Of a stretch of DNA of 64,000 nucleotides, positions 45,626 to 48,729 are shown piece after piece. Below the pieces are notes generated by a model that saw nothing but the letters and a program-made list of their open reading frames with translations, did not search any database and was not told where the DNA came from. Source of the stretch: Yuukianura sp. NJ FZ-2021 (Eukaryota). Position 1 is the stretch's first letter. The number at the start of each line of letters is the position of its first letter. Position numbers and translations under genes: made by a program. The stretch is taken from the NCBI GenBank assembly GCA_046563655.1, contig CM102287.1, positions 9,300,001-9,364,000 on the forward strand, read 5' to 3'.

Positions 45626-46271
45626 TTAGCCTCTAGCAAATCCACATTGTGGCTTGAATTCCTGCGTCAACGCATGGAACATTGGATTTTGGTGGGCAGA
45701 CCAATGCGGTATCTTTTGAACAACATCAAAGTGTTCCACTATGAGTCCATTTTCCAGTCGGTACATCTCAACTACTGCTACGTCAGAGTAGGGGTCACCG
45801 TCAGGGGTCACGTTATTCAAGGCATGGATCCACACCCAGTCACCGTGAGCAGCCACACGCTCAATCAAAAGACGCTTAAATGGCGGAGTTCCTGGCGGGA
45901 ACACTGATTTCAAATAGTTGACGAAACCGTCTTTCCCTGGCTTGACATCCGCATTATGCTGGATGTAGTTGGGCGAAATACAGTCTTCAATTCCAACGAG
46001 GTCACGGTCACCAAAAGCCTTTTGGTAAAATTTGACAACACGGTCCTTGTTGCACTGTTCTTCGTATAAATTTCGTGCTTCATCAGCTAGCTCAACATCA
46101 TTGTTCAGGCGTGCTGAAGCAAAATTTTGAACTCTGACCTCCAGCAAAACCAAGCCTTTTTTAAACCAAATTAAGGAAATCAACAAAAAGTTATGAGAGT
46201 TTTTTAAAAACGAATCTTTTGTTTCATTTTAAAAACTTACATAACAGGATACCCGAAATTCCCAAATTCAT
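45626..46271 (-). CDS. Secreted SnoaL-like/NTF2-fold protein 1 (2 exons)
   Basis: MNLGISGILL|CLVLLEV.., then the core NKDRVVKFY..YIQHNADVKPGKDGF..AHGDWVWIH..AVVEMYRLENGLIVEHFDVVQ. Confidence 0.85.
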
Positions 46272-46762
46272 GGCTATAAGTTAGCTTCTGATCCGAATTA
46301 GCCTTTGACCTCTTTAGCACACAGCGTCTACTGCTGCCAGTATACTGAAGGCACAAATATTTAAAATCTGACAAGTTTTAGTTATTCTTTAGCCTTAGAT
46401 TAAATAACAATGAGAGGACGCATAACCCAAGGTTGACATATTCCGAGGTCAACCGTCATCCTTAAGGAAATTCAAACAACAAAAGTTGAACTTTCACTTT
46501 CTAATGTTTCAATTTTAATGTATTAAAAATAATAAATTATTATTACAAAATAACAAAAATATCCGAGAGCCAAGCCAACCTTAGTCAGTCCATTTTGTAA
46601 GTACTCCTCTTGAAGAATGAAAGCACAATGTATCCGACTGAAGATTGTAAATTGAATATTTGCATGTATGTATTTATTGTAAAGTAAGTAATATTATATT
46701 GTAATATGCATTTATTATACACATTTTATTATGTTTATTATATTTTTATATAGTAATACGTT

Positions 46763-47453
46763 TTAGGATCTACCGTAGGCACACTTTTGTGGGAATTCCG
46801 GTTGGAGGAAGTTGAAAAGCGGTGCGGGATTTTCCGACCACCGTGGAATGTCTTGTATAACATCAAAATGTTCCACCAGCAGCCCTTTGTCATCCAGTCT
46901 AAAAATCTCCACCACTGCAAAATCCGCGGCAGGATTCGAATCTGGAGTCAGATTGTTCAATACATGGATCCAGACCCAGTCCCCCTCAGCCACTGATCGC
47001 TCAAGGACGTAACGGGGGGTGGGTGCGGACCCCGGAGGGAACACAGTCTCAAAGTAACCAATGAACTCATCCGCCCCATCCTTCACTTCTGGATTGTGCT
47101 GAATGTACTTGTCTCCAAAGTACTTCCGAACACCCGTCATATTCCGATCTCGAAAAACACGTTCGTAAAATTCCAAAACAATTTTCAAATTCCGTTTTTC
47201 TTTGGCCAAATCCCGCCCTCCATTTGGAGTTCCAGGTTGACTGGAAATCGAGCCAACCGACCTCCCGATTGTTGTGGCGCTTCCTTTGCGTACTGTGTAT
47301 CCCCTTGTCCATGTTCCAGAGACTGAAGTTACCACTGTACAAAAATTGTTGGAAGAAATGGAAAATTTTTGAAAATCGAATGGCAATAAAAATTTTGAAC
47401 TTTTTGTTGAGAGTTTTACCGAAAAGTAGCAGTAGGTATTTGATCATCATCAT
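46763..47453 (-). CDS. Secreted SnoaL-like/NTF2-fold protein 2 (2 exons)
   Basis: Signal peptide MMMIKYLLLLF|VVTSVSG; core YIQHNPEVKDGADEF..AEGDWVWIH..AVVEIFRLDDKGLLVEHFDVIQ. Confidence 0.88.
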
Positions 47454-47960
47454 GGTATTCAAGACCGATTTTGTTTGGAGTGATTCCGTTGAGTGAAAAT
47501 TTAAGAGTGACATTTCAGAAAAAGTTGGAGGTTCAACGACCTTGTTACTTTGAATTGTGCTTTGTTTCTGGAAGGTCACCTTTAAAAGGTCACGTGACTC
47601 ATTGAAACAATTGTTGACGAAATTTTGAAAATGAAACAATTTCGTCTACCGAATTTTTCAAAAATGACAAATAAGTCCGGCTAAAAAGCAACTAGTTTCG
47701 GTTCTGCAAAATTTTGACTTTAATTCAGTTGAAGTGAGAGGTAGGTTTGGAAAAATAGACAAGTTATGAAATTTAGGAAAATTTTTTAGTTATGAAAACC
47801 TGATTCACTGATTCTGAAATTTTTGAAAATTAGAATATTAATACCCTAAAAAAAATCCGTAAATTCAGAGTTTTATTAACATAAAATTTTGAAAAGCAAA
47901 CAATTCCAACAAGCCTGAAAAGCCAAAACCAAAAATTTTTTTTTCGATATTTTTTCTAAA

Positions 47961-48729
47961 TTAGTTAGTAGTTGCTGCTGGTGGGACTCTACCAAACGCA
48001 CACTGCTGTGGATATTGACCTTGTAGAGCGTCCATCATTGGATGTGAGTTGAAGGACCAAACTGGGACAGCTTGGATCACATCAAAGTGCTCCACCATGA
48101 CACCATTTTGGACACGGTAGATGTCCACAATGGCTTCGTCAAACGCTGGATCCGGGATGGTGGCAACGTTGTTCAGATTATGGATCCACACGAGGTCGCC
48201 TTCTGCTGCTACATGAGCAATCGTGAAGCGCGTAAATGGTTGAGTTCCTGGCGGGAAAATTGATTTGAGCCAATTGATGAATCCGTCTTTGCCGTCGGGG
48301 AGAGTCGGGTTGTGCTGGATGTAGTTCGGGCCAAACCAGTTTTCGATTCCGGTGAGATTGCGTGCTCCAAATACTTGTTGGTAGTAGTTCACAACGAAGG
48401 CTTTGTTTCGAGCTTCTTGGACCAAGTCACGGCCAAAAGTACTTCCAGCGATTTCGCTTCTGCCCAAAAACGCTGGAGGCGGAAAGCGTCGACTGTTCTT
48501 GAGGTTGAGGAGACTCCTTCCACCAAGTCCGAAAGTGACAGCAACAATGGCTAAAACAGAAAAAATAAGTTTTTCAAAATTTTAAATTCAGAATCAGACC
48601 CAATTCTAGAAGAAACTGAATTAAAGAATCTCAAAATCTTGGAGGGTTTTAGTCGAATTTTGTTTTGTGAAGAGTTTATATGTTGGAAAACAACTCACCA
48701 AAAATGAACACGAAGAATGCAGACCTCAT
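47961..48729 (-). CDS. Secreted SnoaL-like/NTF2-fold protein 3 (2 exons)
   Basis: Signal peptide MRSAFFVFIF|AIVAVTFG; core YIQHNPTLPDGKDGF..AEGDLVWIH..AIVDIYRVQNGVMVEHFDVIQ. TATAAA lies at ~48825-48830. Confidence 0.88.

What the first reader, a model, noticed from the sequence alone, without database searches (positions are those of the whole stretch)
45626..48729. Triplicated, intron-bearing, secreted SnoaL/NTF2 proteins of microbial type in an animal genome
Seen: three paralogs with the core YIQHN..G..F..A[EH]GD.VWIH..VE/DxYR..G..VEHFDV[VI]Q. Each has an intronless domain, one phase-1 intron inside the signal peptide, and a shared C-terminal tail (WS..P...L.....[QK]C[AG][FY]). Knowledge: the YIQHNP/EHWDV-type SnoaL-like family is typical of bacteria and fungi. 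Inference: one horizontal transfer, followed by intron gain, secretion and triplication. These may be extracellular small-molecule binders or cyclases/isomerases acting on microbial metabolites. All three read EHFD where microbial members commonly read EHWD.
Basis: partly seen in the sequence, partly recalled or inferred. Interest (0 to 1): 0.8.

Follow-up and report, generated by a model that had tools for sequence, protein, structure and literature searches.

The report
Bacterial-type SnoaL genes in an animal
Three neighbouring genes in a small-genomed invertebrate encode apparently secreted SnoaL/NTF2-fold proteins whose nearest relatives are bacterial, so they look like an old bacterial gene adopted by animals, a known kind of event in a family not yet reported for it.

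Summary
Window 45626-48729 (minus strand) carries three tandem two-exon genes. Each has a full SnoaL_2 domain (Pfam E 5e-12 to 6e-11), a predicted phase-1 intron in a hydrophobic N-terminus, EHFD in place of EHWD, and a 13-residue C-terminal tail with one invariant Cys.

The flanks are animal genes: a TEP/A2M with GCGEQ, neutral ceramidase, LHFPL and C2H2 zinc fingers. All 19 organism-named hits among the best 120 are bacterial, with identity at most 45%.

Four unnamed metagenome proteins share the tail. One of them (L001) lies on a eukaryotic contig beside an intron-bearing MCM7 and has the same phase-1 intron.

In an IQ-TREE analysis the seven tail-bearing sequences form one clade (100/99). 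That clade joins a bacterial group whose named members are nearly all Bacteroidota (99/83).

Best reading: one old bacterium-to-animal transfer, then capture of a signal-peptide exon, a new Cys tail and duplication. The duplications need not be local or recent (AU p=0.30).

Function is inferred only: a secreted homodimeric small-molecule enzyme or binder. No RNA data were available. The host phylum is unresolved. This is a new member of a known kind, of moderate interest.

The parts
45626..46155 (-). Gene A exon 2 (stop codon included): whole SnoaL_2 domain plus C-terminal tail. An alternative acceptor would start this exon at 46113.
   Evidence: ORF and gene model. Pfam SnoaL_2 E 5.3e-12 and SnoaL E 2.2e-9.
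46156..46240 (-). Gene A predicted intron: 85 nt, GTAAGT..AAAAAG, phase 1. It would be 127 nt if the TTGCTTCAG acceptor is used.
   Evidence: No RNA evidence.
46241..46271 (-). Gene A exon 1: ATG plus the first part of the hydrophobic N-terminus (31 nt).
45731..46039 (-). Gene A SnoaL_2 domain (Pfam envelope).
45632..45670 (-). Gene A C-terminal tail (LTQEFKPQCGFAR) with the invariant Cys.
46763..47334 (-). Gene B exon 2 (stop codon included).
   Evidence: Pfam SnoaL_2 E 2.6e-11. Four AATAAA within 150 nt after the stop.
47335..47419 (-). Gene B predicted intron: 85 nt, GTAAAA..TACAG, phase 1.
47420..47453 (-). Gene B exon 1 (34 nt; MMMIKYLLLLF-).
46868..47179 (-). Gene B SnoaL_2 domain.
46769..46807 (-). 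Gene B C-terminal tail (LQPEFPQKCAYGR).
47961..48550 (-). Gene C exon 2 (stop codon included).
   Evidence: Pfam SnoaL_2 E 6.1e-11.
48551..48698 (-). Gene C predicted intron: 148 nt, GTGAGT..TTTTAG, phase 1.
48699..48729 (-). Gene C exon 1 (31 nt; MRSAFFVFIF-).
48087..48392 (-). Gene C SnoaL_2 domain.
47988..48026 (-). Gene C C-terminal tail (LQGQYPQQCAFGR).

Best explanation
The three genes are genuine host genes of a compact-genomed invertebrate. They belong to a small eukaryote-type clade of SnoaL_2 (NTF2-fold) proteins that descends from one bacterial gene. That gene was of the periplasmic or lipoprotein 'YIQHNP...EHWDVIQ' subfamily, and the nearest named relatives are mostly Bacteroidota.

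After the transfer, the bacterial signal or lipobox N-terminus was replaced by a host-type signal-peptide exon joined through a phase-1 intron. The domain gained two small loop extensions (FPPGTxP and LNNVTPDxxP) and a 13-residue C-terminal tail with one invariant Cys. In most members the Trp of EHWD became Phe. The gene then duplicated, and this genome keeps three tandem copies.

Inferred mechanism, not shown: the proteins enter the secretory pathway, form sheet-to-sheet homodimers like other NTF2-fold proteins, and use the conserved polar pocket residues to bind or convert a small hydrophobic or aromatic molecule outside the cell. Those residues are the His of YIQHN, the Asp of GD, an Arg, and the Glu, His and Asp of EH.D. 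The most likely role is handling microbial or dietary quinone- or aromatic-type metabolites.
For: **Shown**
- Domain identity: Pfam SnoaL_2 above the cut-off in all 3 of 3 copies.
- Animal context in the window: TEP/A2M domains (GCGEQ reads across the exon junction), neutral ceramidase, LHFPL, galactosyltransferase, CYP450, ABC transporter and C2H2 zinc fingers. The ceramidase exon falls inside the animal clade (99*).
- GC3 of the three genes is 0.47-0.50, within the 0.35-0.52 range of 16 neighbouring exons.
- Bacterial affinity: 481 hits were found and the best 120 listed. All 19 of 19 organism-named rows are bacteria, with identity at most 45%, although the same database holds animal proteins.
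- All 80 of 80 best GTDB genome loci are bacterial, at 32-42% identity.
- ESM Atlas: all 30 hits share the SnoaL Pfam set, and the three rows shown are 95-100% Bacteria.
- A profile search of 1.84 billion representatives gave 3794 hits. Only 4 of the best 150 cover the tail (P0234, P0238, P0240, P0342), and all four are unnamed metagenome singletons.
- P0240 lies on L001 (12 kb, GC 43.6%) next to an MCM7 gene split by introns and a PDZ exon. It has its own 46-nt ATG exon, a GTAAGT donor, a 106-nt intron and phase 1.
- Trees: in FastTree on 481 domain rows the 7 tail-bearing rows form one clade (SH-like 94) inside a 45-leaf clade (92). In IQ-TREE (LG+C20 PMSF, 89 rows) the clade has 100/99. A 99/83 split joins it to 37 bacterial rows, 12 of which carry an organism name: 11 Bacteroidota (10 genome rows plus P0001, Chryseobacterium) and 1 Bradyrhizobium (P0020).
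- All 17 columns invariant in the 18-sequence alignment are kept by the three window copies.
- A run of another study and another coded organism holds gene A exon 2 with 18 differences in 515 nt. All 30 bins of 39000-55000 are covered in all 4 runs.

**Supports the inferred parts**
- AlphaFold2 model of gene A: mean pLDDT 80.7, with the alpha+beta cone fold. The best PDB match is 3g0k (Foldseek E 4.6e-8, 34% identity), followed by TsrD, IdmH, limonene epoxide hydrolases and ketosteroid isomerases. 3g0k is also the only sequence-level PDB hit (E 2.9e-12).
- Homodimer model: score 0.82 against a best control of 0.00 (3 controls). That mark was reached by 21 of 30 proteins solved as pairs of one chain and by 0 of 23 solved as single chains. 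The runs agree in at least 88% of contacts and the partner pLDDT is at least 84. Because NTF2-fold dimers have been solved, the pass may come from memory.
- Position 120, the W-to-F site, lies in the predicted interface.
- Bacterial neighbourhoods, from 150 of 155 flanking ORFs at loci L081-L158: NmrA-like NAD(P)H-binding proteins at 6 loci, HxlR regulators at 6, LysR at 5, MFS at 5, a second SnoaL_2 at 5, TonB receptors at 4, TetR at 3, and Dioxygenase_C next to all three Flavobacteriia copies.
Against: - No RNA run was listed, so splicing, expression and secretion are all unverified.
- Gene A has a stronger-looking alternative acceptor that would shorten its hydrophobic N-terminus.
- No signal-peptide predictor was available. 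Gene C's 19-residue hydrophobic stretch could be a membrane anchor instead.
- The public contigs laid on the region are only 340-912 nt long. None spans the block boundaries, so contiguity rests on the window assembly itself.
- The tree is unrooted. If the root lay on the eukaryote stem, the nesting argument would fail.
- The 89-row subset was chosen from the FastTree topology.
- The host phylum could not be placed, so 'absent from other animals' may partly reflect poor sampling of that lineage.
- Other clade members have lost residues that are invariant in bacteria: P0240 reads EGFD, P0234 LIQHN and EDD, P0238 SIQHD. This fits relaxed or changed function.
- The tail Cys (residue 148 of the trimmed gene C) is not in the confident dimer interface.
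- The functional inference from bacterial neighbours is guilt by association, and those neighbourhoods are heterogeneous.
Confidence: 0.7

Rival explanations
1. The block is bacterial contamination or a misassembly inserted among animal genes.
For: The protein family is otherwise bacterial. No public contig piece listed spans the block boundaries.
Against: - None of the three domain ORFs has a start codon of its own. Each needs an upstream exon joined across a GT..AG intron.
- GC and GC3 match the neighbouring exons.
- The intergenic spacers (491 and 507 nt) are AT-rich, and AATAAA follows each stop.
- The best bacterial identity is only 45% at most.
- Four runs from two studies cover every bin across the block and its flanks.
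- An orthologue with the same architecture sits beside MCM7 on an independent eukaryotic contig.
Confidence: 0.03
2. The family is an ancient eukaryotic or animal gene inherited vertically and lost in almost all sampled animals. No transfer took place.
For: The tree is unrooted. The host lineage is poorly sampled: its best named relatives are 28% identical for TEP and 55-57% for ceramidase. At least five sources carry the tail-bearing form.
Against: - No named animal or other eukaryote appears among the 19 named hits of the best 120, although animal proteins are in that database.
- The clade groups with one bacterial subgroup to the exclusion of others, at 99/83.
- It is nested four supported nodes deep in the 481-row tree.
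- The domain has no intron.
Confidence: 0.07
3. The donor was a fungus, oomycete or other eukaryote that had itself acquired the bacterial gene, so the transfer was eukaryote to animal.
For: Pythium species carry secreted SnoaL-like proteins of bacterial origin (PMC5023847, passages read).
Against: No fungal or oomycete name appears among the named rows. The nearest named rows are mostly Bacteroidota, with lipoprotein-type N-termini. By that paper's description the Pythium proteins have two domains, unlike these.
Confidence: 0.07
4. The proteins are not enzymes. They are secreted carrier or binding proteins (lipocalin-like use of the NTF2 cone), or structural or defence proteins tethered through the tail Cys.
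For: The NTF2 fold often serves as a binder. Several residues that are invariant in bacteria are lost in clade members P0234, P0238 and P0240. The new Cys tail suggests covalent pairing or tethering.
Against: The three window copies keep all 17 invariant columns, including the charged and polar residues of YIQHN, GD, R and EH.D. That pattern is more typical of a catalytic pocket.
Confidence: 0.25
5. One or more of the three copies is a silent, decaying duplicate.
For: No expression data are available. Gene A has an ambiguous acceptor and reads HNA and AHGD where the other copies read HNP and AEGD.
Against: All three reading frames are intact over 186-206 codons despite only 48-53% identity between copies. 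All family-invariant columns are kept.
Confidence: 0.1

Closest known systems
Bacterial 'YIQHNP...EHWDVIQ' SnoaL_2 proteins (JGI name: predicted SnoaL-like aldol condensation-catalyzing enzyme; solved example PDB 3g0k, Saro_2880 of Novosphingobium aromaticivorans, function unknown)
   Same: Same Pfam domain and fold. All 17 invariant columns are shared, at about 40-45% identity. These proteins are also exported, by signal peptide or lipobox.
   Different: The animal copies have a eukaryotic N-terminal exon with a phase-1 intron, two loop extensions and a 13-residue Cys tail. The bacterial proteins stop right after ..MF. The animal copies read EHFD, not EHWD.
SnoaL, the nogalamycin polyketide cyclase of Streptomyces nogalater (the family's namesake)
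   Same: The alpha+beta cone (NTF2-like) fold. Pfam PF07366 matches gene A above its cut-off.
   Different: Genes B and C fall below the PF07366 cut-off (26.9 and 25.2 against 28.4 bits). There is no polyketide synthase context in the window. Equivalence of the catalytic residues was not tested. SnoaL itself is not among the top Foldseek matches listed.
Secreted SnoaL-like proteins of Pythium, acquired from bacteria (PMC5023847)
   Same: A bacterial SnoaL-like gene taken up by a eukaryote, given a signal peptide and multiplied. The two-domain Streptomyces proteins that the paper names as closest are also among my top hits.
   Different: An oomycete, not an animal, with two SnoaL domains per protein. 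I held no Pythium sequence, so the relationship was not tested.
'SnoaL-like domain-containing protein' BXY_0610200 in the Bursaphelenchus xylophilus secretome table (PMC10854151)
   Same: An animal (nematode) SnoaL-like protein reported among secreted proteins (one table passage read).
   Different: I could not obtain its sequence. No nematode name appeared among my named hits. Whether it has the tail or belongs to this clade is unknown.
Limonene-1,2-epoxide hydrolase, ketosteroid isomerase, IdmH and TsrD (NTF2-fold enzymes)
   Same: Structural neighbours of the model, with Foldseek E 1.5e-5 to 1.6e-4. They share the small hydrophobic-substrate pocket architecture.
   Different: Only 12-24% identity. 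Their catalytic motifs were not compared, so no claim about shared chemistry can be made.

Membership tests
Pfam SnoaL_2 (PF12680) | HMM score at or above the gathering cut-off (27 bits) over the full model. | tested here: met
   46.7, 44.4 and 43.3 bits, covering model positions 1-102 or 2-102 of 102.
Pfam SnoaL polyketide cyclase (PF07366) | HMM score at or above 28.4 bits. | tested here: inconclusive
   Gene A scores 37.7 (met). Gene B scores 26.9 and gene C 25.2 (below the cut-off).
SnoaL-type aldol cyclase (enzyme function) | The catalytic acid/base residues of SnoaL in equivalent positions, and a polyketide pathway context. | not tested
   No residue-level superposition was made. There is no PKS gene in the window.
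Bacterial YIQHNP/EHWDVIQ subfamily (3g0k-like) | The conserved columns N, YIQHN, G, GD.V, R, EH.DV.Q, P. | tested here: met
   All 17 invariant columns of the 18-sequence alignment are kept in the 3 window copies.
Bacterial YIQHNP/EHWDVIQ subfamily (3g0k-like) | Trp in EHWD. | tested here: not met
   All 3 window copies read EHFD. Among 474 other rows, 334 read EHWD and 2 read EHFD.
Bacterial YIQHNP/EHWDVIQ subfamily (3g0k-like) | The protein ends a few residues after the last strand (..MF). | tested here: not met
   The window copies carry a further 19-27 residues with a conserved Cys. This tail is absent from 15 of 15 and 6 of 6 aligned bacterial rows.
Horizontally acquired gene in an animal | Nested within donor-domain sequences in a supported tree. 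| tested here: met
   Clade support 100/99. It is joined to a bacterial subgroup at 99/83 and nested in the 481-row tree. The tree is unrooted.
Horizontally acquired gene in an animal | Physical linkage to vertically inherited host genes. | tested here: met
   Animal genes lie on both sides in the window. The orthologue on L001 lies beside MCM7. No independent long-read check was possible.
Horizontally acquired gene in an animal | Host-type gene structure (spliceosomal intron, host composition). | tested here: inconclusive
   Introns are predicted with GT..AG ends and a conserved phase in 4 of 4 genes. GC3 lies in the host range. There is no transcript evidence.
Horizontally acquired gene in an animal | Absence from other animals. 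| tested here: inconclusive
   No named animal hit appears among the best 120, and no named protein among the four tail-bearing hits of the best 150. Most hits are unnamed and the host lineage is poorly sampled.
Secreted protein | A cleavable N-terminal signal peptide. | tested here: inconclusive
   Hydrophobic N-termini with small residues at -3/-1 were judged by eye (ASA|R, VSG|T, LGG|R). No predictor was available, and gene A's N-terminus depends on which acceptor is used.
NTF2-fold homodimer | Self-association through the beta-sheet face. | tested here: met
   Model score 0.82 against a best control of 0.00. The mark was reached by 21 of 30 proteins solved as pairs of one chain and 0 of 23 solved as single chains. 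Contact agreement is at least 88% and pLDDT at least 84. The pass may come from memory of solved NTF2 dimers.

The most novel reading that the evidence does not exclude
A previously unrecognised, animal-borne clade of extracellular SnoaL-fold enzymes. It would derive from a Bacteroidota-type periplasmic lipoprotein, be marked by a new C-terminal Cys tail and an interface Trp-to-Phe change, be shared by several soil or freshwater micro-invertebrates now seen only as metagenome contigs, and be used outside the cell to neutralise microbial aromatic or quinone metabolites.
Probability: 0.3. Interest if true: 0.6.

Novelty: new member of a known kind. Interest (0 to 1): 0.45.

Why it matters
Bacterial genes that animals have adopted, given a signal peptide and multiplied are a recognised route to new extracellular chemistry. 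Known cases include plant-cell-wall enzymes in nematodes and beetles, and biosynthetic genes in bdelloid rotifers. I found no paper reporting a SnoaL/NTF2-fold case in animals in five full-text searches. The only near mentions are an oomycete parallel and one line in a nematode secretome table.

The locus also offers a tidy example of how a bacterial exported protein is refitted for a eukaryote. The lipobox is swapped for a signal-peptide exon across a phase-1 intron, and a tail with a single Cys is added.

Finally, it shows that unnamed eukaryotic contigs in metagenomes can carry the missing orthologues. The bacterial parent subfamily, with thousands of members and one solved structure (3g0k), has no known function. 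An animal copy with a phenotype could therefore help to assign one.

Tried and rejected
- **Whole genome.** None is held for this window.
- **Earlier findings of this scan.** Nothing by sequence or by place.
- **RNA evidence.** No RNA holder was listed among the 5 runs.
- **Read laying.** The contigs are short (the listed pieces are 340-912 nt). No listed piece spans the whole stretch or bridges the block to a flanking gene, so contiguity was not independently checked. Many short joints with 21-nt sides look like repeat artefacts, and I did not use them.
- **Host phylum.**
  - The TEP exon gave unnamed metagenome proteins as best hits (39-46%) and molluscs at 28% as best named hits.
  - The ceramidase exon gave Procambarus at 57% and Orchesella at 55%.
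  - The ceramidase tree puts the window inside animals but leaves it unresolved.
  - Rfam found nothing in the window.
- **NCBIfam.** No family matched the window copies.
- **Cluster look-ups.** None of the 14 clusters asked about, tail-bearing or nearest bacterial, carried an organism name.
- **ESM Atlas.** Only SnoaL clusters, and the three rows shown were 95-100% bacterial.
- **Literature.** COG4922 returned 0 papers. 3G0K plus NTF2-like returned 0. SnoaL plus rotifer, tardigrade, springtail or mite returned none that contained the word SnoaL.
- **AU test.** A window-only clade of the three paralogues was not rejected (p=0.303), so the timing of the duplications stays open.
- **Metagenome loci.** I examined 13 of the 80. 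Twelve have a stop directly after ..MF or are high-GC two-domain forms. The tblastn matches that seemed to run past residue 136 in L013, L015, L020 and L024 are read-through noise.
- **Tail Cys.** The dimer model did not place Cys148 in its confident interface, so a Cys-Cys bridge across the dimer is not supported by it.
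Full report
**What is there.** On the minus strand of window 45626-48729 lie three open reading frames: 45626-46228, 46763-47443 and 47961-48581. Each matches Pfam SnoaL_2 over the full model at 46.7, 44.4 and 43.3 bits against a cut-off of 27. PF07366 (SnoaL) is passed only by the first. None of the three has an in-frame ATG ahead of the domain.

Each has a short upstream exon that starts with ATG:
- gene A, 46271-46241
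- gene B, 47453-47420
- gene C, 48729-48699

Each of these exons ends in phase 1 at a GT donor. An AG acceptor 85, 85 or 148 nt further on restores the frame, giving proteins of 186, 201 and 206 residues with hydrophobic N-termini.

Gene A has a second, more canonical-looking acceptor (TTGCTTCAG, exon 2 from 46113). It is also in phase 1 and would remove 14 residues of that N-terminus.

The copies are 48-53% identical to one another. They are separated by 491 and 507 nt, and AATAAA follows each stop within 150 nt. There is no fourth copy in the window.

**The setting is an animal genome.** Pfam hits on the long exons of the window include:
- C2H2 zinc fingers
- two cytochrome P450 genes and an ABC transporter
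- a galactosyltransferase
- a thioester protein (A2M/TEP, with GCGEQ across an exon junction)
- neutral ceramidase
- a GMC oxidoreductase
- an LHFPL tetraspan protein
- heme oxygenase

Gene density is about one gene per 3 kb and overall GC is 38.5%.

The host could not be placed. For the TEP exon the best hits are unnamed metagenome proteins at 39-46%, and the best named one is a mollusc at 28%. For a ceramidase exon the best named hits are a crayfish (57%) and a springtail (55%). A quick tree puts that exon inside the animal clade (99*) but leaves it unresolved. Rfam found nothing, and no whole genome is held.

GC3 of the three SnoaL genes (0.47-0.50) lies within the range of 16 neighbouring exons (0.35-0.52).

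Contigs of four public DNA runs from two studies cover all 30 bins of 39000-55000. One run, of a second coded organism, holds gene A exon 2 with 18 differences in 515 nt. The pieces are too short to bridge the block to its flanks. No RNA run was listed.

**Relatives.**
- *5.8 billion protein clusters, gene C as query.* There were 481 hits. Among the best 120, all 19 rows with an organism name are bacteria: Chryseobacterium, Streptomyces, Bradyrhizobium, Pseudoalteromonas, Mesorhizobium, Vibrio and others. Identity never exceeds 45%. The database does hold animal proteins.
- *GTDB genomes.* All 80 best loci are bacterial, at 32-42% identity.
- *ESM Atlas.* All 30 hits share the SnoaL Pfam set, and the three clusters shown are 95-100% Bacteria.
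- *PDB.* The only sequence relative is 3g0k, a protein of unknown function (E 2.9e-12).

The bacterial homologues have their own signal or lipoprotein N-termini, read EHWD, and stop right after ..MF.

The window copies differ in four ways:
- they read EHFD;
- they carry an FPPGTxP extension;
- they carry an LNNVTPDxxP extension;
- they carry a tail of the form L..[EQG][FY]...C.[FY].R.

Of 474 other domain rows, 334 read EHWD and 2 read EHFD.

**The family is not private to this genome.** A profile of the three copies, searched against 1.84 billion representatives, gave 3794 hits. Only four of the best 150 cover the tail: P0234, P0238, P0240 and the fragment P0342. All four are unnamed metagenome singletons.

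P0240 lies on locus L001, a 12-kb contig with GC 43.6%. Its neighbours are an MCM7 gene split by introns and a PDZ exon. The SnoaL gene there has a 46-nt ATG exon (5433-5478), a GTAAGT donor, a 106-nt intron and phase 1. Its reading frame ends at a TGA that the gene caller had read through.

So a second eukaryote carries an orthologue with the same architecture. Of the 13 metagenome loci I inspected (of 80 returned), the other 12 are of the bacterial type.

**Phylogeny.**
- FastTree on 481 domain rows put the seven tail-bearing rows in one clade (SH-like 94) inside a 45-leaf clade (92). Rows covering fewer than 95 profile positions were dropped first, and P0342 was added back.
- I then took the 89-row FastTree clade around them for IQ-TREE (LG+C20+F+G4 by PMSF, 157 columns).
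- In that tree the seven rows form one clade with 100/99 support.
- A 99/83 split joins them to 37 bacterial rows, 12 of which carry an organism name. Eleven are Bacteroidota: the ten genome rows (Chryseobacterium twice, as two domains of one protein; Flavobacterium three times; Parabacteroides; a Bacteroidales MAG; Mucilaginibacter twice; Ohtaekwangia) and P0001 (Chryseobacterium). The twelfth, P0020, is Bradyrhizobium.
- On the other side of that split, the named rows are mostly Pseudomonadota.
- Inside the clade, P0240 and P0234 branch first. win_C pairs with P0342 (90/79) and win_B with P0238 (97/78).
- An AU test does not reject a clade of the three window copies alone (p=0.303). Whether the triplication is local or older is therefore open.

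**Origin.** The simplest account is one transfer of a bacterial exported SnoaL_2 gene into an ancestor of a group of small invertebrates. Homology to bacteria begins inside exon 2, near RDL..E.RNK, and the N-termini are unrelated. I therefore read the intron as the seam where a host signal-peptide exon was captured, not as an intron inserted into the transferred reading frame (inference).

- Contamination is very unlikely, given the exon structure, the composition, the low identity to any bacterium and the independent contig L001.
- Vertical descent with massive loss, or a eukaryotic intermediate donor, cannot be fully excluded. The tree is unrooted and most relatives are unnamed.

**Likely mechanism (inferred).**
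- *Fold.* The AlphaFold2 model of gene A has mean pLDDT 80.7, with the core at about 83-98 and the tail at or below 65. It shows the NTF2/SnoaL cone. The nearest solved folds are 3g0k, then TsrD, IdmH, limonene epoxide hydrolases and ketosteroid isomerases.
- *Conserved residues.* The three window copies keep all 17 invariant columns, including the polar residues of YIQHN, GD, R and EH.D. That fits a working pocket.
- *Dimer.* A two-copy model scored 0.82 against 0.00 for the best of three controls. That mark was reached by 21 of 30 proteins solved as pairs of one chain and 0 of 23 solved as single chains. Contact agreement is at least 88% and pLDDT at least 84. The pass may reflect memory of solved NTF2 dimers.
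- *The W-to-F site.* Residue 120, the Trp-to-Phe site, lies in that interface, while its neighbours His119 and Asp121 do not. The change is therefore more likely to affect packing than chemistry.
- *The tail Cys.* Cys148 is not in the confident interface.
- *Bacterial neighbours.* Nearest-neighbour genes recur as NmrA-like NAD(P)H-binding proteins (6 loci), HxlR (6), LysR (5), MFS (5), further SnoaL_2 (5), TonB receptors (4), TetR (3), and Dioxygenase_C beside all three Flavobacteriia copies. These counts come from 150 of 155 flanking ORFs.

This loosely points to handling of aromatic or quinone compounds. I commit, at roughly one in three, to a secreted dimeric enzyme acting on such small molecules. 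A non-catalytic binder is the main functional rival.

**Comparison with what is known.** The genes are members of Pfam SnoaL_2. They are derived, atypical members of the bacterial 3g0k-like subfamily, failing on the Trp and on the C-terminal end. I cannot call them SnoaL-type cyclases.

A close parallel in print is the bacterial SnoaL-like gene acquired and secreted by Pythium (PMC5023847, passages read). A B. xylophilus secretome table lists a 'SnoaL-like domain-containing protein' (PMC10854151, one passage read), whose relation to this clade I could not test.

Five full-text searches found no report of SnoaL transfer into animals. Supplementary tables of HGT surveys were not examined and may list such genes.

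**Verdict.** This is a new member of a known kind, a bacterial gene domesticated as a secreted animal protein family, with a neat refit of both protein ends. Interest is moderate (0.45).

Noticed in passing
window 25072-26079 (-): A three-exon gene for a GH114 glycoside hydrolase (Pfam E 6.4e-42 on the middle exon) with a hydrophobic N-terminus (MAFKIFVIFSFFIFMKTFCFG). As I recall, GH114 is mainly bacterial and fungal, so this may be a second acquired secreted gene about 20 kb from the SnoaL block.
   Followed up: partly
window 5469-5876 (-) and 9188-9595 (-): Two paralogous intronless ORFs of 135 aa, Ala/Glu-rich, with no Pfam match. Each lies just downstream of a cytochrome P450 gene (3408-4638 and 7409-7891), so the P450-plus-unknown unit appears to be duplicated.
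   Followed up: no
window 31150-32094 (+) and 32158-33507 (+): Two adjacent paralogous ORFs of 314 and 449 aa share stretches such as DPWHPI.L.FS.HHFQRTVN and have no Pfam match.
   Followed up: no
window 53952-54485: Depth is 10-20 times that of the neighbouring bins in all four runs, with many loose ends at 53993-54122. This is a high-copy repeat.
   Followed up: no
window 39000-55000: Differences between the public contigs and the window are very dense: more than 1600 single-letter differences over 16 kb, many at roughly half depth. This suggests divergent haplotypes, pooled individuals or close relatives in the runs.
   Followed up: no
L081, L082, L084 (Chryseobacterium and Flavobacterium loci): In all three Flavobacteriia genomes the SnoaL_2 gene is followed by a Dioxygenase_C (intradiol dioxygenase-like) gene. 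In two of them it is preceded by a Thioredoxin_5/DsbA-like gene. This may be an operon that hints at aromatic-ring chemistry.
   Followed up: partly
L001 6050-6100: The database protein P0240 runs 8 residues past the real end of the gene, because the gene caller read the TGA stop as a sense codon.
   Followed up: yes
window 20549-24719 (-): The thioester protein (TEP/A2M) gene has a single exon of about 970 codons. Its best named relative is only 28% identical, which shows how poorly sampled the host lineage is.
   Followed up: partly
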